DNA from: Myxococcota bacterium
GTDB lineage: Bacteria; Myxococcota_A; UBA796; JAJRTE01
DNA: 64,000 nt
Assembly (NCBI GenBank): GCA_024278455.1
Contig: JAJRTE010000082.1
Span: 16,026 to 80,025, forward strand
Direction of reading: 5' to 3'
Below, piece after piece: positions 22,797-61,720 of the stretch (within the stretch, counting starts at the first letter, position 1; every line of letters starts with the position of its first letter). The notes beneath the pieces are model-generated. The model was given only the letters and a program-made list of their open reading frames with translations, ran no database searches and was not told the DNA's origin. The translations under genes and the position numbers were made by a program.

Positions 22797-22805
22797 AAGG
22801 TGTAC

Positions 22806-40600: not shown

Positions 40601-43600
40601 TGAGCGCGAGCACGACCTTGATGAGTCCCGCGATGCCGGCAGCGGCCTCGAGGTGGCCGACCAGGCTCTTGACCGCCCCGATGGCGCACGGCCGATCACT
40701 GGGCCGGCCCTCGGCCACCACCGATCCAAGGGCCTGCACCTCGATAGGATCGCCGAGCGCGGTGCCGGTGCCGTGCGTCTCGATGTAGTGCACTTGCCCC
40801 GGCGAGACGCCCGCGCGGCGGTAGGCCTCCCTCAGAACCTCGGCCTGGGCCAGCCCGTTCGGGGCCATGAGACCGTTGGTCTTGCCATCGTTGTTGGTGG
40901 CGCTGGCCAGCAGTACCGCATACACGGGATCACCATCCTCGAGGGCTCGAGACAGCGGCTTGAGCACCACCACGCCCGCCCCTTCGGCCCTCCCGTACCC
41001 GTCGGCCGCCGCGTCGAACGTCTTGCACCGCCCGTCCGGAGCCATCACCCCCGCCTTGGAGAAGTTGATCGTGATGTCAGGGGTCAGGATCACGTTCACA
41101 CCGCCGGCAATGGCCAGGGTGGACTCCCCGGAGCGAAGGCTCTTGACGGCCTCGTGCACCGCCACCAGGGAGGAGGAGCACGCCGTGTCCACCGCCATGC
41201 TCGGCCCGCGCAGATCGAACGTGTAGGACAACCGGTTGGCGGCGATGGAGAACGCGCTTCCTGTACCGAAATAGGCGTCGATGCGTGACCTGTCCGAGAA
41301 CAGGATCCGGCTGTAGTCCGAGTTCGTGATACCTACGAACACGCCAGTGCGACTCCCCATCAGCTCCATGGGGCGCAATCCAGCGTCCTCCAGGGCCTCG
41401 TAAGCCACCTCGAGCAGCAACCGCTGCTGCGGATCCATGCGCTCCGCTTCTCTCGGGGAGATGGAGAAGAGCAACGGGTCGAATTCGTCGACACGGTCGA
41501 GGAAGCCCCCTCGTGCGGTCACGGCCTTCCCAGGCGCCGACGGGTCGGGGTCGTAGTAGTCCTCGAGTTTCCATCGATCTCGAGGCACCTCACGGGTGGC
41601 GTCCCGTCCTTCTTCGAGGAGTCGCCAGAACGCTTCCGGGCCGTCGGCCCCGGGGAAGCGGCAGCCGATTCCGATGACCGCGATGGGCTCCTTGTCCGCG
41701 CCAAGCTCTCTCCCGGAAGGGCTGGTCGCTGCTCGAACGCCTGTCGCGCCGGGCGCGTGTTCTGCCAGGAAGCCGGCCAGGCGGGAGACAGTGGGATAGT
41801 CGTACATGACGGTGGCCGGCAAGTCCACGTTCAGCCAGGCCTCGAGGTCGCCGGTCAAGAGGACGGCCTCCTTCGAGTCCAGGCCGTAGTTCGCGAACGG
41901 TTCTTCGGGATCGACGGTGCCCGCGGGCAGACGGAGCCGTTCCTCGAGACGCCGGATGAGCCAGGTCGAGATCTCTCCGGTCGCCTTTCCGGGGCGGAGC
42001 CTGGGAACGGTCGCCCCGGCGTCCTCCACCTTTTTCTCCGTGCGGTGCGTTTCGGGGACACGCCAGGCATGGAGTGGCTCGAGGCGCCCGCCGAGGAAGG
42101 CGGCCCGGCAGGCTTTCCGGCGGATCTTGCCACTCGAGGTCTTGGGCACGGTGCCTGCCCGGATCAGCGCCACGGCGTGGAGCTGGAGATCGTGGTGTTC
42201 GGCGACGGCCCGGCGGATCTTCTTGACGATCTCCTCCGGCGAGGGCGGTGCGTTTTGCCGGGACGTGAAGGCGTCCACTTCCGGGTCCTCCCGGCGCCTG
42301 TCTTTTCCTTCGAACACGGCGTCGGCATAGCGGCGTTCGAGTTCGTGGACGAGGACGAGCCGTTCCTCGCCGTCGATATCGACGGAGAAGGCCGCCCCGC
42401 AGCCCTGGCGAATCGCCCCTGGCGCCGCGGTCTCCACGGTCCTCTCGATGTCCTGCGGGTAGTGGTTGCGACCCCGTATCACGATCAGGTCCTTGAGCCT
42501 GCCGGTGATGAACAGCTCGCCGTCCTCGCGGAGGAATCCCAGGTCCCCGGACCGCATGAACGGCCCGTCGCCGTTCGCCAGTCGGGCGCGGAAGGTCTCC
42601 TCGGTGGCGCCGGGTCGCTTCCAATAGCCGACGGCGATGGACGGTCCCGACATCCACACCTCCCCAACCCGGCCGGGCGGACAGGGCTCGAGAGTCTCGG
42701 GGTCGGCGATGACCAGCCGCTCGACCTCCGGCGTGCCGCACCCGACGAGTGTGATCCCCCCCGGGGAGCCCTGTGGCACCGGCACCGCTTCGTTGCGGCT
42801 CAACGCATCCTTGCTGACCGTGAAGAGCTTCGGGGGCTCTCCCTTTTCGCCGCCGCTGACGAACAACGTGGCCTCGGCCAGACCGTAGCAAGGCCAGGCG
42901 GCGCCGGCACGAAATCCCGCGGGGCCGAAGACTCGAGCAAAACGTTCCAGGGTCTCGGCGCGGACCGGTTCGGCGCCGTTGTAGGCGATCGCCCACGACG
43001 ACAGGTCCAGCCTGGCGAGTTGGTCGCCGGTGACCTGCTTGACGCACAGGTCGTAGGCGAAGTTCGGACCGCCGCTGACGATTGGGCGCCAGGTCGTGAT
43101 GGCCTCGAGCCACCTGGACGGCTGCTTGAGGAACGCGATGGGGGACATGAACACACAGGTCTGGCCCGCGTAGAGGGGGCGCAGGAGGCCGTCGATGAGG
43201 CCCATGTCGTGGTAGTTGGGCAGCCAGGTCAAGGCGACGCTGCCTTCCGGGGTCCCGAACTTCCTGGTCAGCACTTCGAAGTTGAGCACCAGGTTCCGGT
43301 GGGTGACCATCACGCCCTTCGGTGTGCCGGTGGAGCCCGACGTGTACTGGAGCAGCGCCAGGGAATCCCCCCCCACGCCCGGATCGCGCCAGTCGTTCTC
43401 GATACCGCCGGGAAGCCCGTCCGCCGCCGCCCAGTCGAGCCGCTCCAGTTCCGGTGCGGCCTGGAAGAGGGCCGGTGCCATCCCCTTCAGCGCCCGCGTG
43501 GTCAGCACCATGGCGGCGCCGGAATCGGACACGATGGCCTGAAATCGAGGCAAGGTGCGCGCAATGCGCTTCGGATCCGGCGGATAGGTGGGAGTGGCGA

Positions 43601-43898
43601 CCGCTCCAGCGTAGAGGCAGCCGAGGAAGCCGACGAGGAAATCCGTCCCGGGAGGGTAGACCAGAAGGATGGGCCGGCCGATGGCTCCGTGCTGCTGGAG
43701 GAACGCGCCCACACGCCGGGCTCGAGCGTCCAGTTCGGCGTAGGTGATGCGTATCTCGTGGTTCCGGCCTCCGGCAAGGTGCACGCATGCCAGGTCGTTC
43801 GCCTGGTGTACCGCACGCCGGCGCAACACCTCGGCAAGGGTTTTTTCTTCAGCAAGCTTCCCGGTCCCTCTCTCCCTCTTCTCTTCAGGCATGGTCAC
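34665..43898 (-). CDS. hybrid fatty-acyl-AMP ligase / type I polyketide synthase with terminal thioester reductase: FAAL-ACP-KS-AT-DH-KR-ACP-R
   Basis: 3077 aa. Domain markers in order: FAAL 'LQYTSGSTGTPKGVMVTHRNL'; ACP 'ANYGLDSKEAV'; KS 'DTACSSSLVAVH...HGTGTALGDPIE'; AT 'GQGPQWWGMG...GHSMGEVAAAHIAG'; DH 'HPFLATHVELASRPG'; KR 'GTYLVTGGLGSLGLKLARWLAERGAGHLVL'; ACP 'QGMDSLTASELR'; R 'SVLLTGAAGFLGGPLLAELC...DLIVHAGFLVNF'. No ER or TE domain is present. Confidence 0.9.
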   Translation of the reverse strand: MTMPEEKRERGTGKLAEEKTLAEVLRRRAVHQANDLACVHLAGGRNHEIRITYAELDARARRVGAFLQQHGAIGRPILLVYPPGTDFLVGFLGCLYAGAVATPTYPPDPKRIARTLPRFQAIVSDSGAAMVLTTRALKGMAPALFQAAPELERLDWAAADGLPGGIENDWRDPGVGGDSLALLQYTSGSTGTPKGVMVTHRNLVLNFEVLTRKFGTPEGSVALTWLPNYHDMGLIDGLLRPLYAGQTCVFMSPIAFLKQPSRWLEAITTWRPIVSGGPNFAYDLCVKQVTGDQLARLDLSSWAIAYNGAEPVRAETLERFARVFGPAGFRAGAAWPCYGLAEATLFVSGGEKGEPPKLFTVSKDALSRNEAVPVPQGSPGGITLVGCGTPEVERLVIADPETLEPCPPGRVGEVWMSGPSIAVGYWKRPGATEETFRARLANGDGPFMRSGDLGFLREDGELFITGRLKDLIVIRGRNHYPQDIERTVETAAPGAIRQGCGAAFSVDIDGEERLVLVHELERRYADAVFEGKDRRREDPEVDAFTSRQNAPPSPEEIVKKIRRAVAEHHDLQLHAVALIRAGTVPKTSSGKIRRKACRAAFLGGRLEPLHAWRVPETHRTEKKVEDAGATVPRLRPGKATGEISTWLIRRLEERLRLPAGTVDPEEPFANYGLDSKEAVLLTGDLEAWLNVDLPATVMYDYPTVSRLAGFLAEHAPGATGVRAATSPSGRELGADKEPIAVIGIGCRFPGADGPEAFWRLLEEGRDATREVPRDRWKLEDYYDPDPSAPGKAVTARGGFLDRVDEFDPLLFSISPREAERMDPQQRLLLEVAYEALEDAGLRPMELMGSRTGVFVGITNSDYSRILFSDRSRIDAYFGTGSAFSIAANRLSYTFDLRGPSMAVDTACSSSLVAVHEAVKSLRSGESTLAIAGGVNVILTPDITINFSKAGVMAPDGRCKTFDAAADGYGRAEGAGVVVLKPLSRALEDGDPVYAVLLASATNNDGKTNGLMAPNGLAQAEVLREAYRRAGVSPGQVHYIETHGTGTALGDPIEVQALGSVVAEGRPSDRPCAIGAVKSLVGHLEAAAGIAGLIKVVLALKHRRIPPSRKLGKPNPRIPFDTLPVKVQQALEAWPAPPGEALAGVSSFGFGGTNVHVVVKEAPPARAERTPDRPRRRAHLLTLSAVTPAALRDAAARFSRFVAASGAAYDLGDICYTAALRRDARPHRLSLVAESHKEAADKLRRFVAGDGGPDVFQAASLPAQGRRVVFLCPGQGPQWWGMGRELMAAEPVFRASMEAVDVHLLRLAGWSVRDALRAGRDASRIHETEVTQPALFAIQVSLAALWRSWGIHPDVVIGHSMGEVAAAHIAGCIDLETAVRIIYHRGQVMQLVTGKGAMAAVALPLEDALDALRGFEDRLSVAANNGPSSCTISGDPDALATLLGRLEARGVFHRRLKVDLAGHSPQMDPLMGRLEAAIGDVRTHEPEVPIVSTVTGEEAGRDTFQAAYWSRNLREPVLFHTVLERLGSRGHLVFLELSPHPTLLNAVQEAVTGAGGACHVLPSIKREGPEHKTILQSLGALHCLGLPVEFRPLFPDSARCVSLPPYPWQRKRYWIDAPVAQEQETRVQRRREGHPFLATHVELASRPGRHCWVSTLSLEEVPFIADHKVQGVVVFPATAYLEMIHAAVAEAFGDRHAVLSDVRFDKAMFLTSGAPRKVQLEMGAAQDRHRFAFEIFSRPESADEAPWVRHVEGKVAIGRARSGARPARSPGSGDIHHQTVSIAALQQAFEQSRTSESHYRHCEARGIQYGPAFQGVTVLWSRPGEALGRIVLPESVAEQAGAFHLHPALLDACLQVIAAMLPDAETDRDSFLPVRLKEMRVLRQPPRAIWSHAVAVSHESEPGGVPAVPDHLEADVRLIDEDGRVLVAFDGFRIRRLSHEGIAAPVRADWLYDSVWVPRPHLAPLSVAADGDRSLAGQAWLVLAGATGVGRLLCEQVRRAGAVCWEVRAGEGAGRAGDDGWVVGADEAGDLGRLVERLEAAAGRPFDRIVDLWPLDAPAVDSGSPRDIQVLQVDQCGRLVELVRAVGGARDEAVAGAGRAGSRVGERGAEKAVVWVVTRGAQPVGGSAVDPRGACLWGLGRGIAQEVPETWGGLIDLDPDWDAVTASAALMAELAGMPRDDEVAYRGGRRMVRRLVRREDAGVCLAPSMRQDGTYLVTGGLGSLGLKLARWLAERGAGHLVLTSRSGPETRTEWEVSAALGLEPAATLARIEAQGTRVTVARVDVSDGEAMSALLERVEREGPSLRGVIHAAGVVSTVACAELGREDLEKVLAPKVQGAWVLHRATQERNLDFFVLFSSAAATWGSRLLAHYAAANQFLDALAHYRRGLGLPALSVDWAMWGDSGMASQSDNARMLRNMGLDPMAPEEALRLLEQLMAVNAIQATVAAVDWQVFKPMYEQQPRRRLLEDLVVDAPEAEQERAADSGAAVSAAVRLSAVSDPAQRLEEAKALLAGFAANALGLSLEDLDRGAPLTTQGMDSLTASELRNRIQAETGVRINVVHLLRGDSVDALAAEVVAGLPGVRPEAAPSGGEGDGAGTARGAEAPARDPSRGIVSERGQAGRDQERTAVALVGRCNAGRSGLSGVGEPASLVDAAREVRELVDETVDPSRGASWDGAAPKSVLLTGAAGFLGGPLLAELCRGPGVRVTCLVRASSEAEAFARVRANLEASGRWDPSFETRVRAIPGDLSVPGLGVAPERWEDLAEETDLIVHAGFLVNFLFSYQDLRPTNVLGTRELLRLACTGRVKPMHFVSSFSVFLTSEYAGKTVREDDMPCAGPGGYRETKRVCEAMVLEAGARGLPVAIHRPPFIGWDTRTGVYNTRDFLVQFLLGCLELGVAPDVSPLFHIAPVDVVARAIAALAADPHSPGKAYHIIGDERGTVWAELVELLNAAGARLDMVPYAAWRERVRGAPGNPLQQFFPANSSGGGDRGAAVLALFDRASMPARIVADNTREALGDLGCPEMDPSLVKVFLGRVRAGGTIDPGSRASSMAVAAGGSPAAGDEDALPGEGRRRGAA

Positions 43899-43906
43899 CC
43901 CCTGCT

Positions 43907-46900
43907 CTATCGTCCAACGGGATGCGGCGGCGAACCGGCCGGCGCTTCTCCAGTCATGTCCACAAGAACGAACGTGAGATCATCATCGAGGGGCACATCC
44001 CCCCTCGCGTCGTCGAGCGCGTCCGCAATGGCGGCCACCGCGTCGCGTGTGGCGAGGTCCCTGGTCGCGGCGAGCTGCTTGGACAGCTTCCGGATACCCA
44101 ACTGTCTGCCGTTCGGCAGCGTCAACTCCGGGAGCCCGTCCGTGTACATGAACAGTCGATCGCCGGGCTCGAGCTGCCGTTCGCGTACCCCGAGAGAGAA
44201 CGGGTCGTTGCCCAGGGCGGTTCCGGCGCAGGAGAGAGACAACACCTTGCCACTTCCGGTGAGAATGAGGAGTGCGGGTCCGCCGGCGTTGAACCAGCGC
44301 ATCTGGCCAGTCTTCGCATCGATTTCCACCGCGGACATCGTCATGTTGTACTTGCCCTGGCAGATGTCCTCGAGTTCCGCGTTGAGTTCCTCGAGAAGCG
44401 TTTCGATGGCGATGCCGGGCTCCCTTCGCCTGAGCGCCCGGTAGTGTGTGGCGGCCGAAGCGGTCAGCATGGCCGACGCCGCGCCGTGTCCGGTGACATC
44501 ACCGACCAGGACCACGATACGGTCGCCCGTCATGTCGTACCACCACCAGTCGCCGCTGCACTGCGCCGCGGGCCGGTAGAAGCCGTGGACCACGAACCTG
44601 GCGGTCCGGGCCGAGGCTTCTCGAGGCAGGAAGAAGGACTGGACCGCCGAGGTGAGGGCAAGGTCCTTTTCCATGGCCTTGCGCTCGAGTTCCACCTGCA
44701 CGAGCCGTCCTGTCTCCAGGGCGATGGCGATATGGTTGGCCAACGCGGTGAGGATCTCCAGGTCCTCTTCGGTGAACAGGCCTCGAGCCAGGCTGCTGTC
44801 CAGGTAGACGATCCCGATGAAACGTTCATCCATCGTGAGAGGTGCGGCGATGATGCTCTTCAGGCCATGAGCCACCACGCTTTCGGCCATGGAGAGTTCC
44901 CGTTCCGCGTCGCCGACCATGACAAGGGGTGAACCGGAGTCCCGCACCTTGTCCACGACCGTCGTGCTGTACGCGCCTTCGCCGATGATGTCCTGGCCTC
45001 GAGCGTCCCGGGCGCAGGCCACGGCCAGCTCCCCCTTGTCCTCGAGGAACAAGAAGCCCCGTTCGGCGCCGAGCACCTTCACGAGTTCATCCAGTGCGGC
45101 TCGCGCTCGCTCCTTGGGGTCCAGGCTCGACGACGACGCCACGCTGACCTGGAGTAGAGCATCGAGATACCGGGAAGTGGTGACCGCGCCTCCGGAGCTT
45201 CCCCCGATTTCGGTCCGGCCCGAGTGCACGGTACGGGTGGCGGCCAGGGTCGTGCCACCTCCAACCGGCTTCCTCGAGACGGCGTCGAATTCCGCCTCGA
45301 GACGTCCCAGCCGGGCCCGCCAGCCATGTTTCTCCGCAATGGCCAGTGCCGCCGCGGCGTGGCGCTGCTCAGCGCCGGCGTCCTCCCCTTGCCGGGCCAG
45401 CCTGGCACGCTCCAGGGCCACTTCGAACCGCCCCCACTCGCTGTCCGCATCCTCGGAAAGGGTCGCAGCCTGTTCCAACAGCTCCGCCGCAATCTTGACC
45501 TTCCCGGCGTCTCGAGCCAGTGCTGCCTGGATAATGAACCAGTGGCAATCGTTGTAGGACAGCTTCTCCACCATCTTCAGAAGCCGCAGCGCACGGTTCA
45601 CCCTCTCGAGAGCCTCGCCGTGGCTCTCCGCGGGAGCACGGAGGTATTGCCTGAGCCGGGCGTAGGCGATGAAAACGAACATCGGCCTGGGGTGCGCCGG
45701 CACGTGCCCGGGAGGAATCGCGTAGGACTCCCAGGTCTCGATCAGCTCCTCAAGCCCGGCCCCGAGGTCGCCCCGCTCCACCATGCCGAACGCCAGGTAG
45801 GTCAGCATGATCGTCCGGGCCCACCGCTCCGCCTCTGGAAGCGCAGAAGCCATCTCGAGCGCTTCGTAGTGGAAGTGGGTCGCCTCGCGGGTCCGACCGA
45901 GAACCGACAGAATCGCCGCACGATAGGCGCGGGTCATGACCGACGAAGCCGTCAGGTGAGCCTGGTCGGCCTTTTGCATGCCCCGCCGGGCAACGGCTAG
46001 CGCCTCCCGCATGTACCCGCGCATCATCAAGTTGATGCAATAGTCGCTCACCGCCTTGTTGTAGTCTCGAGGATGCAGCCAGTTGTCGATGTCGGGCAAC
46101 GTCTGCAGCCATTGCTCCTCGGCCCGCTTGAAATCACCAAGGAAGTGCGCCGAAAAATTCGCCCACATCCGGCTGGCATGCAGCGTGGCCGGATCGCCCA
46201 TCTCTTCGGCCTGCTCGATGGCGCGACGCCCGTAGAACTCGGCGATGGAACGCTTCTTCAGGTTGGCCATGACCGCCCCGAACCAGCTCGACGTGGCGAC
46301 CGACTCGAGACTCGGCCCGAGCAAGTGGGCATACAGAAGCTGCCGGAGCGTCAGGAGCAGCATGGCCACCGGCTCGAAGGCATAGTACCGGATCTCTCCC
46401 GCTAGTTTGTAGATATGACAGAGGAGCTTGTGCTTCTCGCGCCGTTCGCCGCGCGAACTGCCGTAGCCGATGCGCAAGCGACGCAAGACCGCGGCTGCGA
46501 ACCAGGAGAGGAGCGCGCCGAAAACCTGCCTCGCCTTCGATGACGGATAGGGCTTCCCCAACGCGCCCAGGGCAAGCATGCATTCGTGCCACGCCGCGTC
46601 CAGATCCACCTCGTCCACGAACACCGAACCCGTGCTGGCATGAAGCCGCGCCGCCAGCATGGGGTCTCGCGTGTCCTGGAGCGCATTCCGGAAGTGATGG
46701 ATGGCGTCCCGGTTGCGCCCGACGCCTCGAGCCGCCTGCCCGAGCGCCTGCTCGAGCGCGGCCCTGTCGGCGCGGATGCTCTGTCCCTCCGGCGAGTCCA
46801 GCACGTTGCGAGCCGTGGAGAGGAAGGTGCACGCATCCCGGTAGGCATACCGAGCGAGCGTGAGGCGTCCTGCCTCGAGGTTCGTCTCGAAAACACGGTT

Positions 46901-49060
46901 CGGGTTCTTGCCCCAATCACCGAGAGCATAGTGCCGGGCGATGGCCAGAACCCGTTCCGGCGCATCCGAGTCCTCGGCATCGAGCGCTTCGCCGATCTTT
47001 TGATGTATCTCAGCCGACGTGGGTTCATCGAGCGCCGCGGCCAACGTCTCGCACAGACGGTCCTGCAGGAACATGTAGGTCTCGGCACCGGTTCGGGCGA
47101 CGAGGTTCGCGCCCGTCGCCTCCGCGATGGCACGATTCACAGGCTCCTCACCCATTCCGGCGACATCCACGAGCAGGTGGAGAGCGAAAGTCCTGCCGGC
47201 GAGAGCGGCGCGTTCGAGCACGCGTCGTGTCTCGGAACTCAGCGCCTCGAGCCGCCTGAGCGAGAGGTCGAACACGTCGGCGGGAAGGTGCAGGGACGCG
47301 AACCCGTCCATGTCGACGCGCCACTGGCCCTGGGCAGGGAGTATCAGCCCGGCGTCGACGGCGGTTCGGACGTACTCCTCCACGGCGAGGGGGTTTCCGT
47401 TCGTCGCCACGGCGAGCCGTTCCACGAACCGGCGTTCGACGATGTGGCCCCCGAGATGGCCTGCGATGAGTTCCGCCACGCCTTCCACGTCCACGGGTCC
47501 GAGCGCGAGGTGTCGTGCTGCCGGAAACGCGCCCAGGGACCCGGCGTGCCTCCCGCCGTCTGCCTCGGTCTCCGACCGAGCTGCGAGGACGAGGAGGATG
47601 GGCACCCGTTCCGCCGCGCTCGCTACCCTCGACAGCACTTCCCGGGACCCTTCGTCCAACCACTGGGCGTCATCCACGACGAAGAGCATCCGGCCGCTCT
47701 CCGCGGCCAGGTTGGCGACGAAGCGGGCCAGGGCGTCGTTGAACAGTTCACCTTCGAGCTGGGCCACGGCACCGGTGTCTCCAGCGGCACGGGCCATGGC
47801 GGGGGACAACGATTTCACGAGAGGGCCGAGTTCGCCCATCGATCGCTCGAGCAGGCGTCTTGTCGCCGTGTCGCCCTGTTCGATGCGTTGGAACAGGTCC
47901 TCGAGGCAGGTATCGAGAGCCTGCCGGAGGGCTCCGTAGGGCACGGCGTTCCCCCGGCTGCCTCTTGTCCGCAACACGAGCGCTCCGGACTCCGCGCAGG
48001 ACGCGATGCTCGAGAACTCCTGGCACAACCGGGTCTTGCCGCTGCCGACCTCGCCTTCGATCGCCAGGACCCGGCCGCGGCCAGAACCCGCCTCCTTCCA
48101 CAGGGTTCCGAAGGTCTCGAGTTCCTGCTCCCGTCCGGCCAGGGGCAGTATCCGACTCGGCGGCTCCGGACGGTCGTTCCGTCCGAGCACCGCGTCCCCC
48201 GCATCGGCGAACAGGGTCTCGAGTTCTTCCAGGCGTTCGAGGTCGGATATCAGCCCTTCCACCGACTGGTAGCGGTCGTCCGGGTCCTTGGCGAGCAGCC
48301 GGGCAACGATGGCAGACAGCGCGGGCCCGATGTCGTCGTTCAACGTGTGCAGCCTGGGAGGCACGACGGCAGCATGCTGGCGCAGGAGTTCTCCGAGGTC
48401 GTCGGCCAGGAAGGGGGGGGTTCCGGCGAGGCATTCGAACAGGATGACGCCGAGGGAGTAGAGGTCGGCGCGTCCATCGACGGGCCGCTTGAGCAGCCCT
48501 GCCTGCTCCGGAGCAGTGTAGAGGAACGTGCCCACGACCTCCTCTTCCCGGTGCCCCCCCTCCTCCCCCACTGCCCGGGTGGCGAGCCCGAAGTCGATGA
48601 GCCTTGGTGTTCCCTGAAGGTCGATGATGATGTTGGCGGGCTTGATATCCCGGTGGACGAGCCCGTGACGGTGAACCTCCCCCAACGCGCCTGCGATGGT
48701 CGATGCCAGGCCGACGACTCGAGAAGGGGGCACCGGACCGCGTGCCAGGACAGCCGAGAGTTCTTCTCCCTCCACGAGTTCCATCAGGAGATAGGGACTC
48801 CCGCGAAGGTCTCCCGCTTCGATCACCTTGACGAGACCGGGGTGGTCGAGCCGTGCCAGGACGACAGCCTCGCGGTAGAAGCGTCGCCTGATCGCGTCTC
48901 CATGGTCGTCGCCCGCTGCGCGCATTACCTTGAGCGCATAGGTGTGTCCGTCTCGAGAGGCCTGGTAGACCGTACTCATCGCGCCCCTGCCAAGCTCACA
49001 GCCCACCTGCAGACCCCGCACCGCTGGATCCACCTCACGCAACCTGGCTGCAGCAATCAT
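43907..49060 (-). CDS. giant signalling protein: Ser/Thr protein kinase, AAA/STAND ATPase, TPR-like region, GAF, PP2C (SpoIIE-type) phosphatase
   Basis: 1717 aa. Kinase: 'YALKVMR', catalytic loop 'HRDIKPANIII', 'IDFGLA', 'TAPEQ'. Walker A 'EGEVGSGKT'. The C-terminal region is GAF-like. PP2C motifs are 'LVGDVTGHGAASAM' and 'LFMYTDGLPE'. Its stop lies 8 bp from the PKS start codon on the same strand. Confidence 0.85.
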   Translation of the reverse strand: MIAAARLREVDPAVRGLQVGCELGRGAMSTVYQASRDGHTYALKVMRAAGDDHGDAIRRRFYREAVVLARLDHPGLVKVIEAGDLRGSPYLLMELVEGEELSAVLARGPVPPSRVVGLASTIAGALGEVHRHGLVHRDIKPANIIIDLQGTPRLIDFGLATRAVGEEGGHREEEVVGTFLYTAPEQAGLLKRPVDGRADLYSLGVILFECLAGTPPFLADDLGELLRQHAAVVPPRLHTLNDDIGPALSAIVARLLAKDPDDRYQSVEGLISDLERLEELETLFADAGDAVLGRNDRPEPPSRILPLAGREQELETFGTLWKEAGSGRGRVLAIEGEVGSGKTRLCQEFSSIASCAESGALVLRTRGSRGNAVPYGALRQALDTCLEDLFQRIEQGDTATRRLLERSMGELGPLVKSLSPAMARAAGDTGAVAQLEGELFNDALARFVANLAAESGRMLFVVDDAQWLDEGSREVLSRVASAAERVPILLVLAARSETEADGGRHAGSLGAFPAARHLALGPVDVEGVAELIAGHLGGHIVERRFVERLAVATNGNPLAVEEYVRTAVDAGLILPAQGQWRVDMDGFASLHLPADVFDLSLRRLEALSSETRRVLERAALAGRTFALHLLVDVAGMGEEPVNRAIAEATGANLVARTGAETYMFLQDRLCETLAAALDEPTSAEIHQKIGEALDAEDSDAPERVLAIARHYALGDWGKNPNRVFETNLEAGRLTLARYAYRDACTFLSTARNVLDSPEGQSIRADRAALEQALGQAARGVGRNRDAIHHFRNALQDTRDPMLAARLHASTGSVFVDEVDLDAAWHECMLALGALGKPYPSSKARQVFGALLSWFAAAVLRRLRIGYGSSRGERREKHKLLCHIYKLAGEIRYYAFEPVAMLLLTLRQLLYAHLLGPSLESVATSSWFGAVMANLKKRSIAEFYGRRAIEQAEEMGDPATLHASRMWANFSAHFLGDFKRAEEQWLQTLPDIDNWLHPRDYNKAVSDYCINLMMRGYMREALAVARRGMQKADQAHLTASSVMTRAYRAAILSVLGRTREATHFHYEALEMASALPEAERWARTIMLTYLAFGMVERGDLGAGLEELIETWESYAIPPGHVPAHPRPMFVFIAYARLRQYLRAPAESHGEALERVNRALRLLKMVEKLSYNDCHWFIIQAALARDAGKVKIAAELLEQAATLSEDADSEWGRFEVALERARLARQGEDAGAEQRHAAAALAIAEKHGWRARLGRLEAEFDAVSRKPVGGGTTLAATRTVHSGRTEIGGSSGGAVTTSRYLDALLQVSVASSSSLDPKERARAALDELVKVLGAERGFLFLEDKGELAVACARDARGQDIIGEGAYSTTVVDKVRDSGSPLVMVGDAERELSMAESVVAHGLKSIIAAPLTMDERFIGIVYLDSSLARGLFTEEDLEILTALANHIAIALETGRLVQVELERKAMEKDLALTSAVQSFFLPREASARTARFVVHGFYRPAAQCSGDWWWYDMTGDRIVVLVGDVTGHGAASAMLTASAATHYRALRRREPGIAIETLLEELNAELEDICQGKYNMTMSAVEIDAKTGQMRWFNAGGPALLILTGSGKVLSLSCAGTALGNDPFSLGVRERQLEPGDRLFMYTDGLPELTLPNGRQLGIRKLSKQLAATRDLATRDAVAAIADALDDARGDVPLDDDLTFVLVDMTGEAPAGSPPHPVGR

Positions 49061-49459
49061 GGTTCGCCCTTCCTGTTCCCGATTGGAATCGGCCCGGTAC
49101 GAGTGCGCACCGGCTCACGTCGATAGCACTTGCCCAAGAATCGGAGAGACAGGCGAAAAACTTGAATACTGGTCTGGCGCTGGGCACCGTGGCCGGCTCG
49201 AAAGACTAACAGGGCGGCGATACGCGGCAACCTTTCCGCTCAAGAGGACCACCAGGGTCGCCGAAGTGATAGGTGACGGAGCGGAAGCGACAGGCTTTCC
49301 CGCCTTCGCGACCCGTCACGTCGATGCCCAGGTACAAAGAAGCTGAACAGCTCTCGATTGTGCCGTCTCGGCCAAAAACATCGGCCCGACACGTGCCTGG
49401 CTCGTGCCGCGCCGATGTGACCATACTGCTCGCACCTCATCGCAGGGGAAGGAACCACC

Positions 49460-50461
49460 ATGAATGTTGACATGGACACCATCGTCAAGAAACCAGAAGC
49501 GGCGCCGGTTCTTGGCGCAAGCGGCATCGTGTTTGTGAACGGCAGCGCGAATCAACTACCGAATCTTCCTCGAGTTCTGAGACGTGTCGTTGGGAAAGTG
49601 GAGTTGCGGGGATCGATGGCAGAAGTCCGTGATTCCAATAGCAGTGAACTCGTGGCGGTGAACTTCGATAGCCTGACGGCAAAGGAGCGGGACGGCCTGA
49701 TCCGCGATTTCGCCTTCGGACCGGGAAGACCGACGCTGCTCCTCCTCTCCGAAGGACACGCGCGCGACTACCTGTCGCGACTGTTCGCCAACCACACCCT
49801 GACGAACATGCTGGTCGTCAACAACAGGAACGTCGATATCTGCGACTTCCTGGTGACCATCCGCAAGATTCTGAAGCAGGACATCTTCGGACTGGAGAAG
49901 TACTTCGTCTGGGGAACGAAGACCCACCGCCTGCTCCTCACCAGTTCCACGCAACGCGGGGACGTGCTGGACACCATCGAGGCCTACTGCCACGACCTCA
50001 ACATACCGCGCAGGCTCAGGAACCTGGTCGTCTCCGTCGCGGACGAGTTCGTCACCAACGCGCTCTACAACGCACCGGTCGACGAACAGGGAGGCCCCAG
50101 GCATGCGAGCCTGCCGCGGACCGAGGAGGTGACGCTCGCCGAGGGCGAAGTGATCGAGGTCAAGCTCTGCTGTGACGGTTGGAGATTCGGCATCGCCACG
50201 TCGGACCCCTTCGGAACCTTGACACCGGAACTCCTGCTCGACTACCTGGCGAAGTGCTTCACCAAGGAAGACTATCAACCCGACGAGAGCAAGGGAGGCG
50301 CCGGTCTCGGCTTCTATCACATCTTCGAAAGCTTGTCCCACTTCATCGTCAACATCGCCCCTGGCAAGCGCACGGAACTCATCGGGCTCCTGGACGTGAG
50401 CGGAAGCTACCGCACCTTCGCCCAGGCGGGCAAATCCTTCAACCTCTTCACGGGAGAATGA
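49460..50461 (+). CDS. pseudo-receiver domain plus GHKL (RsbW/SpoIIAB-like) serine-kinase/anti-sigma-factor-type domain protein
   Basis: GGAAGGA RBS. The N-terminal 170 aa has a receiver-like alternating pattern without an obvious phospho-Asp pocket. The C-terminus has an N-box-like 'ADEFVTNALYNA', a G1-like 'DGWRFGIATSDPFG' and a G2-like 'GGAGLGFYHIFE'. Confidence 0.55.
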   Translation: MNVDMDTIVKKPEAAPVLGASGIVFVNGSANQLPNLPRVLRRVVGKVELRGSMAEVRDSNSSELVAVNFDSLTAKERDGLIRDFAFGPGRPTLLLLSEGHARDYLSRLFANHTLTNMLVVNNRNVDICDFLVTIRKILKQDIFGLEKYFVWGTKTHRLLLTSSTQRGDVLDTIEAYCHDLNIPRRLRNLVVSVADEFVTNALYNAPVDEQGGPRHASLPRTEEVTLAEGEVIEVKLCCDGWRFGIATSDPFGTLTPELLLDYLAKCFTKEDYQPDESKGGAGLGFYHIFESLSHFIVNIAPGKRTELIGLLDVSGSYRTFAQAGKSFNLFTGE

Positions 50462-50937
50462 CGATGGGCCACCAGATGTCCTGGAAACGGATTCTCGTGG
50501 ACGGGCAGGAGCGAATCCAGTTGGAGGGCAGCATCTCCGAGCACACCGACTTCAGGTCACTCATCGAAGTCGCTTCCGATTCTCTCGCTCTCGACCTGGC
50601 CCACGTCGACCAGATCAACTCCTGCGGCGTGCGCGAGTGGATCAATTTCGTCAACGCACTAAGGGAGTTGGGAAAAAACCTCGAAATGCACCGCTGCTCG
50701 CCGGCCATCGTCCGGCAGCTCAACATGATCTCCAACTTCAGGGGTGACGGCAAGGTCCAGTCGGTTCTGGCCCCCTACTTCTGCGACGCCTGTGACAACG
50801 AGATGACACAGATCGTGGATCTGGCCGGTATCGAGTCGCCCCCCGAAATCGCCGAGACGCTCCCATGTCCGAACTGCGGCGAGGACATGGAATTCGACGA
50901 TCTCGTCGATAGCTACCTGGGCTTCCTGGGCCGATGA
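50458..50937 (+). CDS. STAS-domain (anti-sigma-factor-antagonist-like) protein with C-terminal Cys4 zinc ribbon
   Basis: ATGA overlap with the upstream gene. The STAS core is 'LALDLAHVDQINSCGVREWINFVNALRELGKNLEMHRCSPAIVRQL', with Ser at the position of the SpoIIAA phospho-Ser. The zinc ribbon is 'CDACDNE...CPNCGE'. Confidence 0.7.
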   Translation: MTMGHQMSWKRILVDGQERIQLEGSISEHTDFRSLIEVASDSLALDLAHVDQINSCGVREWINFVNALRELGKNLEMHRCSPAIVRQLNMISNFRGDGKVQSVLAPYFCDACDNEMTQIVDLAGIESPPEIAETLPCPNCGEDMEFDDLVDSYLGFLGR

Positions 50938-51959
50938 AACAGAAAGACCCACCCAGGTTGTCAAAGGAGATCAAGGCCATGGTCGATGCGTCCATGGACG
51001 CCGTGATGGTCTCGGACCTGGACCTCCGAGTCATCTACTACAACACGAATATGCTCGAACTGGCCGGTCTCCGCCCGCGCGAACTGCGCAGGGCACGCGC
51101 GCAGGGCATGTGCCACAACCACTTCGGCCTCGAGACGTGCGACGAGCCTGATGGATGCGTCGCCAGGCGTGCCATCGACAACAGGCGACACCTGCGCGTC
51201 GACGAGGTGCGGTGCGCGTCTCCCGCAGGGGACGAATCCAGGCGCCTGATCATCGTCGCCGTGCCCTTGCTCGACACCGAAGGGCACCCCTACGCCGTCC
51301 TGGAGCAGTACAGGGATGTCACCGCAGAAAGCCGGATGCAGGAGCACTACAAGAACCTGCTCAAAAAGGAGCGGGAGCGGCTGGAGCGGCTCGCGGCCGA
51401 GGTCGAGCAGCAGGCCACGCTGGCGAGAACCGACCCCCTGACCGGCGTCGCGAACCGTCGCTGGTTCGATGAAACGCTCGCCGCCGCCATCGACAAGGCC
51501 GTCCACACCAACGAACCGCTCGTCCTGCTCATGTTCGACCTCGACCACTTCAAGAAGGTCAACGATACTTACGGGCACCAGACCGGGGACGAGGTGCTCC
51601 GGCAGTTCGCCAACGTGCTCCGCCGCTGCACCCGTGCCGACGCGGACGTGGTGGCTCGAGTCGGTGGCGAGGAGTTCGCCGTGCTCATGCCGGGCTGCAC
51701 CCTGGACATGGCTGTCAAGGCCTACTGCCGGGTGAGGGAGCAGAACGCACGCACAGGACTACTGACCACCTGTAGCTGTGGCATCGCCTGCTTGCATATC
51801 GATGCCGACAATGCCTCCGGCCTGTTCAAGGCAGCCGACAGCGCGCTCTACGCATCCAAGGAGAACGGCCGCAACCGGGTGACCGTGGCTGCTGATCTCG
51901 ATGCATGTCCCCTTGCAGCGCCCGGCAAGGGCGAAGCGCTGTCCGCCGGCCCATTCTGA
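50934..51959 (+). CDS. PAS-GGDEF diguanylate cyclase
   Basis: ATGA overlap with the STAS gene. The N-terminal region is PAS-like. 'DPLTGVANRRWFDE' and 'RVGGEEFAVLMPG' form an intact GGEEF active site. 'DLDHFKKVNDTYGH' is the metal-binding region. Confidence 0.85.
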   Translation: MKQKDPPRLSKEIKAMVDASMDAVMVSDLDLRVIYYNTNMLELAGLRPRELRRARAQGMCHNHFGLETCDEPDGCVARRAIDNRRHLRVDEVRCASPAGDESRRLIIVAVPLLDTEGHPYAVLEQYRDVTAESRMQEHYKNLLKKERERLERLAAEVEQQATLARTDPLTGVANRRWFDETLAAAIDKAVHTNEPLVLLMFDLDHFKKVNDTYGHQTGDEVLRQFANVLRRCTRADADVVARVGGEEFAVLMPGCTLDMAVKAYCRVREQNARTGLLTTCSCGIACLHIDADNASGLFKAADSALYASKENGRNRVTVAADLDACPLAAPGKGEALSAGPF

Positions 51960-54031: not shown

Positions 54032-54051
54032 TCGCGGCCTACCTGAAGTGG

Positions 54052-55725: not shown

Positions 55726-55791
55726 CGCGGTCCAACGACCTCCCTGGTCCCCGGGCTTCGCCGTCCCGCCGGCAGGTGGGAGGGACGGCGT

Positions 55792-58977: not shown

Positions 58978-59365
58978 GGCTCGCTCTTTCGGAATCGGCG
59001 CAGCGGCCTGCCCGGCGAGCGTCTCCTGGTCGCAGCCGGCAGGTCCCCGATGTCGCTTTCGTCTTGCCCTCCGGGCGCCCGCGAACCGCCGGCAACGTCG
59101 CACGGACTGGTCTCTGGACCGGGCCCCGGCGATGGAGCGCCCGCCAACTGTTGTTTCCCAGGCGTTGAAGTGTAGCAGAGCCGCCACGCTTTCCAAAGCG
59201 CATTCGAATGGAGGGAAAACGGGCCAACAGCACCGCGGGCGACCTTTTCTGTTGCCAAGGTGCGGGAAAGCGGGTATAGACCGCCACCATTCGATAATCC
59301 CTCCGGCACGGGACCCCGACAGGCACCGCCCTTGGGTACGTATCCCACCGGCTCGAGACGACGAT

Positions 59366-61453: not shown

Positions 61454-61720
61454 AAACCGCTCCCCGCTCCTGGCGGAACATATCATCCCGCTTCATCTGG
61501 CATGTGGATTGCATACCTCGAAGCAAGACCATCTCGCGCAGGCAGCACCCGGGCCGGTACCGCCGGTCGCGGACCGAAGGCGAACAAGCAAGGCGAATGA
61601 AATCGTCTCGAGCACGTCCAACCAACGCACGTATTCGCCCTCGAGCACCGATCCGGCGTCGACCCGCGGATGTGGATCCCATACAACGATCGTGGTACGC
61701 AGTGTAGGAGGAAGTCGCCC

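What the first reader, a model, noticed from the sequence alone, without database searches (positions are those of the whole stretch)
43907..49060. 1717-aa kinase-plus-phosphatase signalling giant (STK, AAA/STAND, TPR, GAF, PP2C) directly upstream of a megasynthase
A single polypeptide carries an N-terminal eukaryotic-like Ser/Thr kinase with a complete catalytic apparatus, a STAND-type NTPase with Walker A 'GEVGSGKT', an extended helical/TPR-like scaffold, a GAF domain and a C-terminal PP2C/SpoIIE phosphatase. It therefore carries opposing kinase and phosphatase catalytic activities. Its stop codon at 43907 is only 8 bp from the start at 43898 of the FAAL-PKS-R gene on the same strand. This suggests co-transcription and dedicated control of a lipid-like metabolite by a self-contained phospho-switch.
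Basis: partly seen in the sequence, partly recalled or inferred. Interest (0 to 1): 0.6.

Follow-up and report, generated by a model that had tools for sequence, protein, structure and literature searches.

The report
Kinase-phosphatase giant of a lipid-linked partner switch
The 1717-residue kinase-plus-phosphatase protein is real and intact, but its phosphatase end most likely works with two small neighbouring proteins as a "partner switch", and this whole signalling set travels through evolution with fatty-acid-derived lipid and polyketide genes.

Summary
ORF 43907-49060(-) encodes 1717 aa with Pkinase, AAA_16 (STAND), GAF and SpoIIE/PP2C domains. All catalytic motifs are conserved across 41 homologues. 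A FAAL-ACP-KS-AT-DH-KR-ACP-R gene starts 8 bp downstream, and no terminator was found between them.

The lipid/PKS link holds: FAAL or KS genes lie beside 10 of 17 homologous loci. They lie beside 0 of 41 sister proteins with a GGDEF output and 0 of 80 generic kinase loci. All 4 loci reached by starting from a partner gene also have them.

"Self-contained opposing switch" is not supported. The same kinase-STAND-GAF body carries GGDEF or histidine-kinase outputs in sister families. They are transcribed divergently at 49460-51959:
- a receiver-like + SpoIIAB/RsbW-like kinase (no Pfam match; fold search);
- a STAS + zinc-ribbon protein with an invariant Ser at the SpoIIAA-Ser58 position;
- a PAS-GGDEF cyclase.

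In three distant contigs these genes, the giant, FAAL, ACP and a PilZ-fused aminotransferase form one colinear operon.

Best reading: an uncharacterised SiaABCD-like partner switch, elaborated with a Hanks kinase and a STAND module, tied to lipid biosynthesis. This is a new variant of a known kind.

The parts
43907..49060 (-). Giant signalling protein, 1717 aa: Hanks Ser/Thr kinase - AAA_16 STAND NTPase - helical/TPR-like region - GAF - SpoIIE-type PP2C
   Evidence: ORF list and translation. Pfam. A 100% identical protein is in the public collection, P0001. The start codon and ribosome-binding site are conserved with L001.
48263..49006 (-). Pkinase domain (aa 19-266), RD-type, with all catalytic motifs present
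   Evidence: Pfam E 4.9e-43. K44, E64, HRD136-138, N143 and DFG156-158 are conserved in 41 homologues. Coordinates.
47588..48142 (-). AAA_16 STAND-type NTPase (aa 307-491), Walker A GEVGSGKT 336-343, Walker B DD 463-464
   Evidence: Pfam 81.3 bits against a cut-off of 32.6. Conservation. NCBIfam TOMM kinase/cyclase fusion model aligns to aa 303-776.
45191..47587 (-). Helical scaffold (aa 492-1290), TPR-like only at sub-threshold level
   Evidence: TPR_MalT E 0.0028, TPR_16 E 0.14. No PDB sequence match. Homologues carry TPR_12.
44717..45121 (-). GAF domain (aa 1314-1448), directly before the output domain
   Evidence: Pfam GAF, GAF_2 and GAF_3, E 1e-16 to 8e-14.
43958..44527 (-). SpoIIE/PP2C phosphatase domain (aa 1512-1701) with four Asp-containing metal-binding motifs
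   Evidence: Pfam E 6.5e-32. D1504, D1521, GHG1524-1526, DG1641-1642 and DD1693-1694 are invariant. A profile of the C-terminal region hits Rv1364c at 2.4e-15 and SiaA-PP2C 6k4e at 2.6e-12.
43899..43906 (-). 8-bp spacer between the giant's stop codon and the GTG start of the PKS (14 bp if the ATG at 43892 is used)
   Evidence: Sequence. No terminator-like site in 43000-50000 lies at this junction.
34665..43898 (-). FAAL-ACP-KS-AT-DH-KR-ACP-R megasynthase, 3077 aa, last gene of the two-gene unit (the next gene is convergent)
   Evidence: Pfam. NCBIfam fatty-acid--AMP ligase 1.2e-126, and thioester reductase TIGR01746 at 268 bits against a cut-off of 213.
49061..49459 (.). Divergent intergenic region shared by the giant-PKS unit and the partner-switch operon
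   Evidence: Sequence. Conserved blocks against L001, such as TTCAAGTT and TCTCCGATT. No sigma-70-like or sigma-54-like match above chance.
49460..50461 (+). 333-aa receiver-like + SpoIIAB/RsbW-like GHKL Ser-kinase protein (no Pfam or NCBIfam model)
   Evidence: No Pfam or NCBIfam hit. 175 homologues, all unannotated. AF2 model pLDDT 85.2. Foldseek: SpoIIAB E 2.5e-6 with TM 0.74-0.79, RsbW TM up to 0.86, SiaB, and REC domains at about 0.75. Invariant residues E196, N200, D249-x-F-G and G280-A-G-x-G284; G279 is invariant in A4 and at least 90% conserved in A5.
50458..50937 (+). STAS + C-terminal Cys4 zinc-ribbon protein (157-159 aa; start at 50464, or at 50458 in an ATGA overlap)
   Evidence: Pfam STAS E 0.0034. 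AF2 pLDDT 95.8. Foldseek top hits are SpoIIAA, an RsbV-like protein and the Haliangium antagonist. S53, C107, C110, C135 and C138 are invariant in 43 homologues. The Ser is kept in 24 of 26 copies found in related loci. Overlap read.
50934..51959 (+). PAS-GGDEF diguanylate cyclase (GGEEF motif); its start overlaps the STAS stop codon (ATGA)
   Evidence: Pfam GGDEF 8.4e-45 and PAS_4. NCBIfam SiaD-like 2.9e-41, below the cut-off. Overlap read. Sequence.

Best explanation
The giant is the sensory input phosphatase of a partner-switching module that is genetically tied to a FAAL-initiated lipid/polyketide pathway.

Shown here:
- It has an intact Hanks kinase, STAND NTPase, GAF and SpoIIE-type PP2C.
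- Beside it lie a receiver-like + SpoIIAB/RsbW-like kinase, a STAS-zinc-ribbon protein with an invariant Ser at the SpoIIAA-Ser58 position, and a PAS-GGDEF cyclase.
- This gene set recurs with FAAL, ACP and PKS genes in distant relatives.

Inferred mechanism:
1. The small GHKL kinase phosphorylates Ser53 of the STAS protein.
2. The giant's PP2C removes that phosphate when its GAF domain (small ligand) and STAND/TPR module (nucleotide-dependent switch) permit it. The state of its own RD-type kinase may also gate this.
3. Unphosphorylated STAS then changes partner. In this window the likely partner is the adjacent PAS-GGDEF cyclase, as SiaC does with SiaD, which would change c-di-GMP levels.
4. 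The lipid pathway is controlled downstream. This could work through c-di-GMP (relatives carry a PilZ domain fused to the pathway's aminotransferase). It could work by direct STAS binding to an enzyme. It could work by Ser/Thr phosphorylation of the FAAL-PKS by the giant's kinase domain.

On this reading the kinase and the phosphatase of the giant are sequential or parallel parts of one circuit. They are not antagonists on one substrate.
For: Domains and conserved catalytic residues.

PP2C affinity: the nearest solved relatives are partner-switch phosphatases.

Partner proteins:
- The 333-aa protein models as REC-like + SpoIIAB/RsbW fold.
- The STAS model has pLDDT 95.8, with SpoIIAA and RsbV as top hits.
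- Ser53 is invariant.
- The three genes are translationally coupled by ATGA overlaps.

Co-occurrence:
- GHKL-like and/or STAS-Zn genes occur in 8 of 17 giant loci.
- They occur in 12 of 25 related PP2C loci that lack the giant's mid region; those with long upstream flanks (L108, L159, L160, L162) also show no adjoining Hanks kinase.
- They occur in 0 of 41 GGDEF-output sisters and 0 of 80 generic kinase loci.
- FAAL or KS genes occur in 10 of 17 giant loci, against 0 of 41 and 0 of 80 (Fisher p 3.7e-7 and 1.5e-9).

Four look-ups started from the GHKL-like protein all returned the giant plus FAAL/PKS.

L096, L171 and L172 share a colinear operon: GHKL-like, STAS-Zn, PAS-GGDEF, giant, FAAL, ACP. 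In L096 and L171 a PilZ + aminotransferase follows; in L172 the gene at that position is cut by the contig end. Gene ends overlap in L171 and L172. The PilZ has RxxxR and NxSxxG motifs.

Precedents in the literature:
- SiaABCD (PMC7647112, PMC8457831).
- A partner switch that directly regulates a biosynthetic enzyme in Anabaena (bioRxiv 10.64898/2026.04.08.717354).
- SpoIIE-like phosphatases generally act in partner-switch modules, and STAS is found fused to Hanks kinases in Sorangium (PMC2887360).
Against: - No biochemistry exists. Nothing shows that the PP2C acts on this STAS protein, that the GHKL-like protein is an active kinase, or that STAS binds the cyclase.
- The GHKL/STAS pair is absent within the available flanks of 9 of 17 giant loci, some of them with long flanks (L087, L091, L092).
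- FAAL/PKS genes are absent from 7 of 17.
- The GGDEF gene is adjacent only in the window-like subclade (window, L001, L096, L171, L172).
- The window's PKS has no PilZ domain, and no PilZ was found among the large ORFs of the window. The c-di-GMP step to the PKS is therefore not evidenced here.
- The role of the Hanks kinase domain is unresolved.
- The control sets differ in taxonomy and flank length from the test set.
Confidence: 0.55

Rival explanations
1. The Hanks kinase and the PP2C of the same polypeptide act antagonistically on the same substrate or substrates, possibly on the giant itself or on the FAAL-PKS. They form a self-contained phospho-switch dedicated to the downstream megasynthase.
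For: Both catalytic sites are intact and co-conserved in 41 homologues. The two genes form a tight unit. FAAL/PKS synteny is conserved. Single polypeptides with opposed kinase and phosphatase activities exist: the nearest solved relative of the PP2C is Rv1364c, and SypE (PMC10120452) and HsbR (PMC5085249) are further examples.
Against: In those precedents the kinase is a GHKL RsbW-type kinase, not a Hanks kinase, and the substrate is a STAS domain. Here a separate RsbW-like kinase and a STAS protein are encoded alongside. That pair also follows related PP2Cs lacking any Hanks kinase. The same kinase-STAND-GAF body is joined to GGDEF or HisKA outputs in sister families, so the phosphatase is not specifically paired with the kinase. 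SpoIIE-like phosphatases are generally not the antagonists of Hanks kinases (PMC2887360).
Confidence: 0.15
2. A classical partner switch that controls transcription. The REC-GHKL protein is an anti-sigma factor, the STAS protein is its antagonist, and the giant is an RsbU-like input. The PKS operon is regulated through a released sigma factor. The adjacent cyclase is incidental.
For: The best structural matches are SpoIIAB/sigma-F and RsbW/RsbV complexes. The triad composition is the canonical one (PMC2887360).
Against: No sigma-factor gene was seen among the annotated ORFs of the window or in the called genes of 12 related loci. The PAS-GGDEF gene is translationally coupled to the STAS gene and is kept in colinear operons at about 36-50% identity.
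Confidence: 0.15
3. Chance neighbourhood. The giant is one of many general-purpose signalling kinases of a large GC-rich genome that is rich in PKS genes, and the adjacency has no functional meaning.
For: Genomes of this kind carry many kinases and many PKS clusters. 7 of 17 homologous loci show no FAAL/KS gene.
Against: The counts are 10 of 17 against 0 of 41 sister loci with similar total flank, and 0 of 80 generic kinase loci. Adjacency persists through rearrangements: downstream on the same strand, convergent, upstream with a 4-bp overlap, and embedded.
Confidence: 0.08
4. An anti-phage or conflict system built on a STAND NTPase with kinase and phosphatase effectors.
For: STAND NTPases and Ser/Thr kinases occur in defence systems. 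PADLOC models PD-T4-6 and mad6 hit the protein, as does NCBIfam MADS6.
Against: Those hits cover only the generic kinase domain (residues 10-286). There are no hits for the rest of the protein or for the partner proteins. The neighbours are biosynthetic and second-messenger genes, not defence or mobile elements.
Confidence: 0.03

Closest known systems
SiaABCD partner switch of Pseudomonas aeruginosa (PMC7647112, PMC8457831)
   Same: It has a PP2C phosphatase with an N-terminal sensory region, a small kinase of the anti-sigma-factor type, a phosphorylatable protein with an antagonist fold, and a diguanylate cyclase encoded together. The unphosphorylated antagonist activates the cyclase. The giant's C-terminal region matches SiaA-PP2C (6k4e, 2.6e-12). 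The kinase model matches SiaB.
   Different: NCBIfam SiaA and SiaD scores are far below the equivalog cut-offs (26.6 against 700, and 141.5 against 290). The phosphatase here carries a Hanks kinase, a STAND NTPase and a GAF domain. The kinase has an N-terminal receiver-like domain and is structurally closer to SpoIIAB/RsbW. The substrate is a canonical STAS domain with a zinc ribbon and a Ser site, not SiaC with Thr68. The module is tied to FAAL/PKS genes.
SpoIIE-SpoIIAA-SpoIIAB and RsbU-RsbV-RsbW partner switches of Bacillus
   Same: The same three protein folds and the same position of the phosphorylatable Ser at the N-terminus of helix 2 of the STAS domain.
   Different: No sigma factor is encoded nearby. 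There are extra domains on all three proteins. The output is probably enzymatic or a second messenger.
HstK / cbSTKIII 'dual protein kinases' of cyanobacteria (PMC2176072). Pkn44 and Pkn30 affect heterocyst glycolipid synthesis (Shi et al. 2007, cited in PMC4365693).
   Same: An N-terminal Hanks kinase, followed by a long region, GAF and a C-terminal output domain. Homologues with a HisKA/HATPase output align to about 85% of the giant at 34-40% identity. Two members affect a PKS-derived lipid.
   Different: The output here is a SpoIIE PP2C, not a histidine kinase. HisKA and HATPase domains are absent. Whether the Anabaena proteins share the AAA_16 module was not checked here.
Single polypeptides with a PP2C plus a kinase acting on STAS: M. 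tuberculosis Rv1364c (3ke6), Vibrio fischeri SypE/SypA (PMC10120452, PMC4517449), P. aeruginosa HsbR/HsbA/HsbD (PMC5085249)
   Same: Kinase and PP2C activities sit in one protein and control a STAS protein. HsbA also talks to a diguanylate cyclase. Rv1364c is the best PDB sequence match of the giant's PP2C.
   Different: Their kinase is a GHKL RsbW-type kinase. In the giant the fused kinase is a Hanks-type kinase, and the RsbW-type kinase is a separate gene.
HenR/All4160/Alr3423 module of Anabaena (bioRxiv 10.64898/2026.04.08.717354)
   Same: A PP2C, a STAS protein and a kinase regulate a biosynthetic enzyme directly, not a sigma factor.
   Different: The pathway is polysaccharide, not lipid. 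The domain make-up differs. No homology test was done here.
STAND-containing kinase regulators encoded beside biosynthetic clusters: TOMM kinase/cyclase fusion protein (TIGR03903); M. tuberculosis PknK and Streptomyces AfsK/AfsR (both from memory)
   Same: A Hanks kinase joined to, or paired with, an AAA_16/TPR STAND module and linked to secondary-metabolite or lipid genes. The TIGR03903 model aligns to aa 303-776 at 8.6e-65.
   Different: The score is far below the equivalog cut-off (219 against 706). None of these carries GAF plus PP2C or has partner-switch companions.

Membership tests
Hanks-type (eukaryotic-like) Ser/Thr protein kinase | Pkinase domain above the Pfam gathering score | tested here: met
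   147.9 bits against a cut-off of 31.7, aa 19-266.
Hanks-type (eukaryotic-like) Ser/Thr protein kinase | Catalytic residues: Gly-rich loop, VAIK Lys, alpha-C Glu, HRD, Asn, DFG, APE | tested here: met
   GRGAMS, K44, E64, HRD136-138, N143, DFG156-158 and TAPE, conserved in 41 homologues.
Hanks-type (eukaryotic-like) Ser/Thr protein kinase | Phosphotransfer activity and identified substrates | not testable with these tools
   Needs in vitro kinase assays or phosphoproteomics.
STAND NTPase (AAA_16 class) | AAA_16 domain with Walker A and Walker B motifs | tested here: met
   81.3 bits against a cut-off of 32.6. GEVGSGKT 336-343 and DD 463-464 are conserved.
STAND NTPase (AAA_16 class) | C-terminal repeat (TPR) sensor arm | tested here: inconclusive
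   Only sub-threshold TPR_MalT and TPR_16 hits in this protein. TPR_12 is on record for homologues.
SpoIIE/RsbU-type PPM phosphatase of partner-switching systems | SpoIIE (PF07228) domain with the metal-binding Asp motifs | tested here: met
   111.5 bits against a cut-off of 25. D1504, D1521, D1641 and D1693/1694 are invariant.
SpoIIE/RsbU-type PPM phosphatase of partner-switching systems | A STAS-domain substrate with a phosphorylatable Ser/Thr encoded nearby | tested here: met
   Window 50458/50464-50937. The model is a STAS fold. S53 is invariant. It co-occurs in related loci.
SpoIIE/RsbU-type PPM phosphatase of partner-switching systems | A GHKL anti-sigma-type Ser kinase encoded nearby | tested here: met
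   Window 49460-50461. Fold matches SpoIIAB and RsbW. The N-box and G-box are invariant.
SpoIIE/RsbU-type PPM phosphatase of partner-switching systems | Dephosphorylation of the phospho-STAS protein | not testable with these tools
   Needs biochemistry.
SiaABCD system (equivalogs) | SiaA and SiaD NCBIfam equivalog scores | tested here: not met
   SiaA 26.6 bits against a cut-off of 700. SiaD 141.5 bits against a cut-off of 290. It works like SiaABCD but is not a member.
HstK / cbSTKIII dual protein kinases | C-terminal HisKA + HATPase_c histidine-kinase module | tested here: not met
   No HisKA or HATPase_c hit in the giant. This is a sister architecture only.
FAAL-primed type I PKS with reductive release (the neighbouring gene) | FAAL, ACP, KS, AT and a terminal thioester reductase | tested here: met
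   Pfam. NCBIfam PRK05850 at 1.2e-126, and TIGR01746 at 268 bits against a cut-off of 213.
Known anti-phage defence systems (PADLOC) | Match beyond a generic domain, and partner genes of a defined system | tested here: not met
   Hits cover only the kinase domain. There are none for the partner proteins.

The most novel reading that the evidence does not exclude
A previously undescribed signalling cassette, mainly of Myxococcota. A Hanks-kinase/STAND/GAF-fused PP2C, a receiver-fused RsbW-like kinase and a STAS-zinc-ribbon protein form a partner switch that drives a diguanylate cyclase. The resulting c-di-GMP, or the STAS protein or the Hanks kinase directly, gates enzymes of FAAL-initiated lipid biosynthesis post-translationally. 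Those enzymes are a PilZ-fused alpha-oxoamine-synthase-like aminotransferase in some genomes and a FAAL-PKS-reductase in this one. This would be the first partner-switch and c-di-GMP control of a membrane-lipid or polyketide-lipid pathway.
Probability: 0.3. Interest if true: 0.75.

Novelty: new variant of a known kind. Interest (0 to 1): 0.6.

Why it matters
Very little is known about how bacteria regulate specialised lipid and polyketide-lipid synthesis after transcription. Here a conserved gene set links four things: a multi-sensor kinase/phosphatase, a partner switch, a c-di-GMP cyclase and, in relatives, a PilZ domain fused to the pathway's condensing aminotransferase. That gives a concrete circuit that can be tested in vitro. 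It also defines two uncurated protein families with no Pfam or NCBIfam model: the REC+RsbW-like kinase and the STAS+zinc-ribbon protein. It shows that the widespread kinase-STAND-GAF body is a swappable input module with phosphatase, cyclase or histidine-kinase outputs. For genome mining, the cassette could serve as a marker for regulated FAAL-primed lipid clusters.

Tried and rejected
- **Genome scan with the full-length alignment.** It was useless for synteny, so I reused it as a control set.
- **Exact look-up of P0001.** The protein is not on record, and the cluster look-up gave no names. The source organism remains unknown. Myxococcota is inferred only from the named homologues.
- **Promoter and terminator scans.** Nothing above chance, and no sigma-54 site in the divergent intergenic region.
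- **PADLOC.** Only generic kinase-domain hits, so the defence reading was rejected.
- **Sequence searches for the 333-aa protein.** Pfam and NCBIfam found nothing. A PDB profile search gave only sub-threshold GHKL hits. Only structure prediction plus fold search resolved it.
- **PDB sequence search with the helical middle region.** Nothing found.
- **Literature searches.** They found no paper describing the Pkinase-AAA_16-GAF-SpoIIE architecture, STAS-zinc-ribbon proteins, or PilZ-fused oxoamine synthases. The library holds only open-access papers.
- **PilZ in the window.** I looked for a PilZ or c-di-GMP-binding domain in the window's PKS and other large ORFs and found none.


Full report

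Yes. The ORF list gives 43907..49060 on the minus strand, 1717 aa with an ATG start, and a 3077-aa ORF at 34665..43898 directly downstream on the same strand. Pfam places four domains, all far above the curated cut-offs:
- Pkinase, residues 19-266, E 4.9e-43
- AAA_16, residues 307-491, E 1.5e-22
- GAF, residues 1314-1448, E 1e-16
- SpoIIE, residues 1512-1701, E 6.5e-32

- Kinase: GRGAMS, K44, E64, HRDIKPAN, DFG, TAPE.
- NTPase: Walker A GEVGSGKT 336-343 and Walker B DD 463-464.
- PP2C: SGDWWWYD, GDVTGHG, YTDG, DDDLT.

In an alignment of 41 full-length homologues (28-70% identity) these residues are invariant or at least 90% conserved. All three catalytic modules are therefore under selection.

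The stop codon TAG lies at 43909-43907 and the GTG start at 43898, a gap of 8 bp. An ATG at 43892 sits at a better distance from a G-rich ribosome-binding site. No terminator-like hairpin lies at the junction. The downstream protein is FAAL-ACP-KS-AT-DH-KR-ACP-thioester reductase.

The one weak element is the 'TPR' label. Residues 492-1290 give only sub-threshold TPR_MalT and TPR_16 hits, although homologues have TPR_12 on record.

**2. The protein belongs to a large, uncharacterised family with swappable outputs.**

A search of the 5.8-billion-protein collection returned 5553 hits. There is an identical protein, a 70% orthologue, and then dozens of full-length proteins at 29-43% identity with the same Pkinase-AAA_16-GAF-SpoIIE order. 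Many come from Myxococcota and Myxococcales MAGs, and their only names are generic.

Interleaved with them are proteins that align over about 85% of the query but end in GGDEF or in HisKA/HATPase_c instead of SpoIIE. The second type is the 'dual protein kinase' or HstK (cbSTKIII) architecture described in cyanobacteria (PMC2176072). So the kinase-STAND-helical-GAF body is a common input module, and the PP2C is one of at least three alternative outputs. This already argues against the kinase and the phosphatase being a dedicated antagonistic pair.

**3.

A 399-bp intergenic region lies upstream of the giant. Beyond it, three genes run the other way and are translationally coupled by ATGA overlaps.

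(a) 49460-50461 encodes 333 aa with no Pfam or NCBIfam hit, even at E 10.
- It has 175 homologues, all unannotated.
- An AlphaFold model built from 40 of them (pLDDT 85.2, pTM 0.85) shows an N-terminal (beta-alpha)5 receiver-like domain and a C-terminal domain.
- The best PDB matches of the C-terminal domain are the anti-sigma-factor kinases SpoIIAB (E 2.5e-6, TM 0.74-0.79) and RsbW (TM up to 0.86), followed by SiaB. The N-terminal half matches receiver domains at TM about 0.75.
- The GHKL N-box (E196, N200) and G-boxes (D249-x-F-G; G280-A-G-x-G284, with G279 at least 90% conserved) are invariant.

(b) 50458/50464-50937 encodes a 157-aa protein with a sub-threshold Pfam STAS hit (E 0.0034).
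- Its model (pLDDT 95.8) matches SpoIIAA, an RsbV-like protein, a Haliangium anti-sigma antagonist and RsbV.
- Ser53 sits at the N-terminus of helix 2, the position of SpoIIAA Ser58. It is invariant in 43 homologues and kept in 24 of 26 copies recovered from related loci.
- The C-terminus is a conserved Cys4 zinc ribbon.

(c) 50934-51959 encodes a PAS-GGDEF cyclase with a GGEEF motif.

A SpoIIE-type PP2C, an RsbW-type kinase and a STAS protein together make the canonical partner-switching triad. The nearest solved relatives of the giant's C-terminal region are partner-switch phosphatases: Rv1364c at 2.4e-15, SiaA-PP2C 6k4e at 2.6e-12, RssB and SpoIIE.

**4. Comparative genomics.**

I fetched contexts of homologues chosen only for long contigs. 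I also ran a metagenome scan with the C-terminal 480 residues. I then scored every locus by tblastn with one fixed panel of queries.

| Locus set | n | FAAL or KS gene in the flank | GHKL-like and/or STAS-Zn gene |
|---|---|---|---|
| Giant, SpoIIE type (including the window) | 17 | 10 | 8 |
| GGDEF-output sisters from the same scan (414 kb) | 41 | 0 | 0 |
| Generic kinase loci from the failed genome scan (1.33 Mb) | 80 | 0 | 0 |
| Related PP2C proteins lacking the giant's mid region | 25 | 1 | 12 |

In the last set the pair often sits as a GHKL-then-STAS tandem right beside the phosphatase. The loci with long upstream flanks (L108, L159, L160, L162) also show no adjoining Hanks kinase. Fisher tests for the FAAL/KS counts give p = 3.7e-7 and 1.5e-9. 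These p-values ignore relatedness.

The FAAL/PKS adjacency survives rearrangement:
- downstream on the same strand (window, L001, L089, L097);
- convergent (L002);
- upstream with a 4-bp overlap, inside a FAAL-PKS-giant-cupin-NRPS-like operon (L088);
- among MMPL, desaturase and acyl-CoA dehydrogenase genes (L005).

As a reciprocal test I started from four homologues of the 333-aa protein. All four loci contain the giant and FAAL/PKS genes.

In L096, L171 and L172 the giant is about 36% identical (L096) and the partner about 50% identical to the window proteins. There the genes run colinearly: GHKL-like, STAS-Zn, PAS-GGDEF, giant, FAAL, ACP. In L096 and L171 a protein with an N-terminal PilZ domain fused to a class I/II aminotransferase follows; in L172 the gene at that position is cut by the contig end. 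Gene ends overlap in L171 and L172. That PilZ has the RxxxR and NxSxxG c-di-GMP-binding motifs.

An AMP-ligase, ACP and aminotransferase trio is the pattern described for bacterial sphingoid-base synthesis (PMC9386255). In L088, L169 and L170 the STAS-Zn domain is fused to the N-terminus of a second Hanks kinase. This echoes the STAS-kinase fusions noted in Sorangium (PMC2887360).

**5. How it most likely works.**

Shown: the domain make-up, the conserved catalytic residues, the predicted folds of the partners, and the conserved gene neighbourhoods.

Inferred:
1. The 333-aa kinase phosphorylates Ser53 of the STAS-Zn protein.
2. The giant's PP2C removes the phosphate under control of its GAF domain (ligand unknown) and its STAND/TPR module.
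3. Unphosphorylated STAS switches partner. Here the most likely partner is the adjacent PAS-GGDEF cyclase, as SiaC activates SiaD (PMC7647112, PMC8457831).
4. The lipid pathway responds. This could be through c-di-GMP, as in relatives with PilZ-fused enzymes. It could be through direct STAS-enzyme contact, with the Anabaena HenR/All4160 module as precedent (bioRxiv 10.64898/2026.04.08.717354). It could be through phosphorylation by the giant's Hanks kinase.

The STAS-kinase fusions suggest that a Hanks kinase domain may itself be a STAS-controlled output. For this window the last step is the weakest. The PKS has no PilZ, and I found none among the window's large ORFs. I put about 0.55 on the overall model. 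I put more on the partner-switch assignment of the PP2C and on a real functional tie to FAAL-lipid genes, and less on the c-di-GMP route to this particular PKS.

**6. Comparison with known systems.**

It works like SiaABCD, HsbR/HsbA/HsbD (PMC5085249) and SypE/SypA (PMC10120452). It is not a member of the Sia family, because the NCBIfam SiaA and SiaD scores are far below the cut-offs. It is a sister of the HstK dual kinases, not a member, because it has no HisKA/HATPase module. Two HstK proteins, Pkn44 and Pkn30, affect the PKS-made heterocyst glycolipid (Shi et al. 2007, cited in PMC4365693). That is a suggestive parallel for a lipid role of this protein body. Defence-system models hit only the generic kinase domain.

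**7. Novelty and verdict.**

The protein is a member of a widespread but unstudied family. I found no paper describing this architecture or its partners, within an open-access library only. The 'self-contained opposing switch' should be replaced by a multi-protein partner switch with a probable cyclase output. I rate it a new variant of a known kind, with interest 0.6.

**8. Limits.**

- There is no experimental evidence.
- The source organism is unknown.
- The test and control sets differ in taxonomy and flank length.
- tblastn with single queries may miss divergent neighbours.
- 7 of 17 loci lack FAAL/KS genes and 9 of 17 lack the partner genes within the sequence available.

Noticed in passing
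L096 13457-15037; L171 19668-20996 (the gene at L172 19658-20536 is cut by the contig end): A PilZ (c-di-GMP-binding) domain is fused to the N-terminus of a class I/II aminotransferase of the alpha-oxoamine-synthase type, directly after FAAL and ACP genes. The RxxxR and NxSxxG motifs are present. I found no description of such a fusion in the literature searched.
   Followed up: partly
L088 2652-4718(-); L169 7851-10004; L170 7887-10004: The STAS + zinc-ribbon domain is fused to the N-terminus of a second Hanks Ser/Thr kinase of about 690-720 aa, placed directly upstream of the REC-GHKL gene with a 4-bp overlap. This is Rosetta-stone-type evidence that this STAS family talks to Hanks kinases.
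   Followed up: partly
L098 6443-19235: Two full-length giants lie in tandem, with STAS-Zn and GHKL-like genes between them on the opposite strand and a third kinase gene starting at 20898. P0032 and P0061 also both list a longest contig of 86,691 bp, so they may share one contig.
   Followed up: no
window 27887-29554(+) and 29702-30697(-): A B12-binding radical SAM enzyme and an alpha/beta hydrolase lie 4-7 kb beyond the PKS. In L170 a B12-radical SAM gene is in the same operon as the giant, FAAL and ACP. In L088 a hydrolase closes the operon. They may belong to the same lipid pathway.
   Followed up: no
window 30784-34500(+); also 11813-14077, 14980-18807, 61670-63655: A 1238-aa protein has 18 MopE-type putative copper-binding repeats (E 1.2e-166) and is convergent with the PKS. 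Three more large proteins carry the same motif.
   Followed up: no
window 52439-59448(-), syntenic with L001 144-6516: Two PMT_2-type glycosyltransferases and a 1218-aa sulfatase-domain protein are conserved next to the signalling genes in the 70% orthologous contig. An FGE-sulfatase-family protein (PF03781) lies at 4388-5164.
   Followed up: no
window 49061-49459 against L001 9614-10000: The divergent intergenic region keeps several conserved blocks, such as CATCACNTCGGCGACCC, CTTGAGC..AAAGG, TTCAAGTT and TCTCCGATT. These are candidate shared promoter or operator elements. No sigma-70 or sigma-54 consensus was found.
   Followed up: partly
window 49460-50461: The receiver-like domain of the 333-aa kinase keeps an Asp after strand 3 (D70, at least 90% conserved). 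In the window protein Asn27 stands where most homologues have an acidic residue after strand 1. It may be an atypical receiver or a pseudo-receiver.
   Followed up: partly
L169 296-4207 and 11415-16440(-): An AAA_16-TPR-sigma-54-activator fusion protein (1303 aa) lies near the cassette. The giant there is detected full-length by tblastn, but the gene caller split it into a 904-aa GAF-SpoIIE gene plus a gap. This suggests a frameshift or a miscall.
   Followed up: no
window 7961-11619(-) and 21954-26150(-): There are two multi-haem cytochrome c proteins, one fused to a cytochrome b561 domain, and a 1398-aa ORF with no Pfam match. Both appear unrelated to the finding.
   Followed up: no
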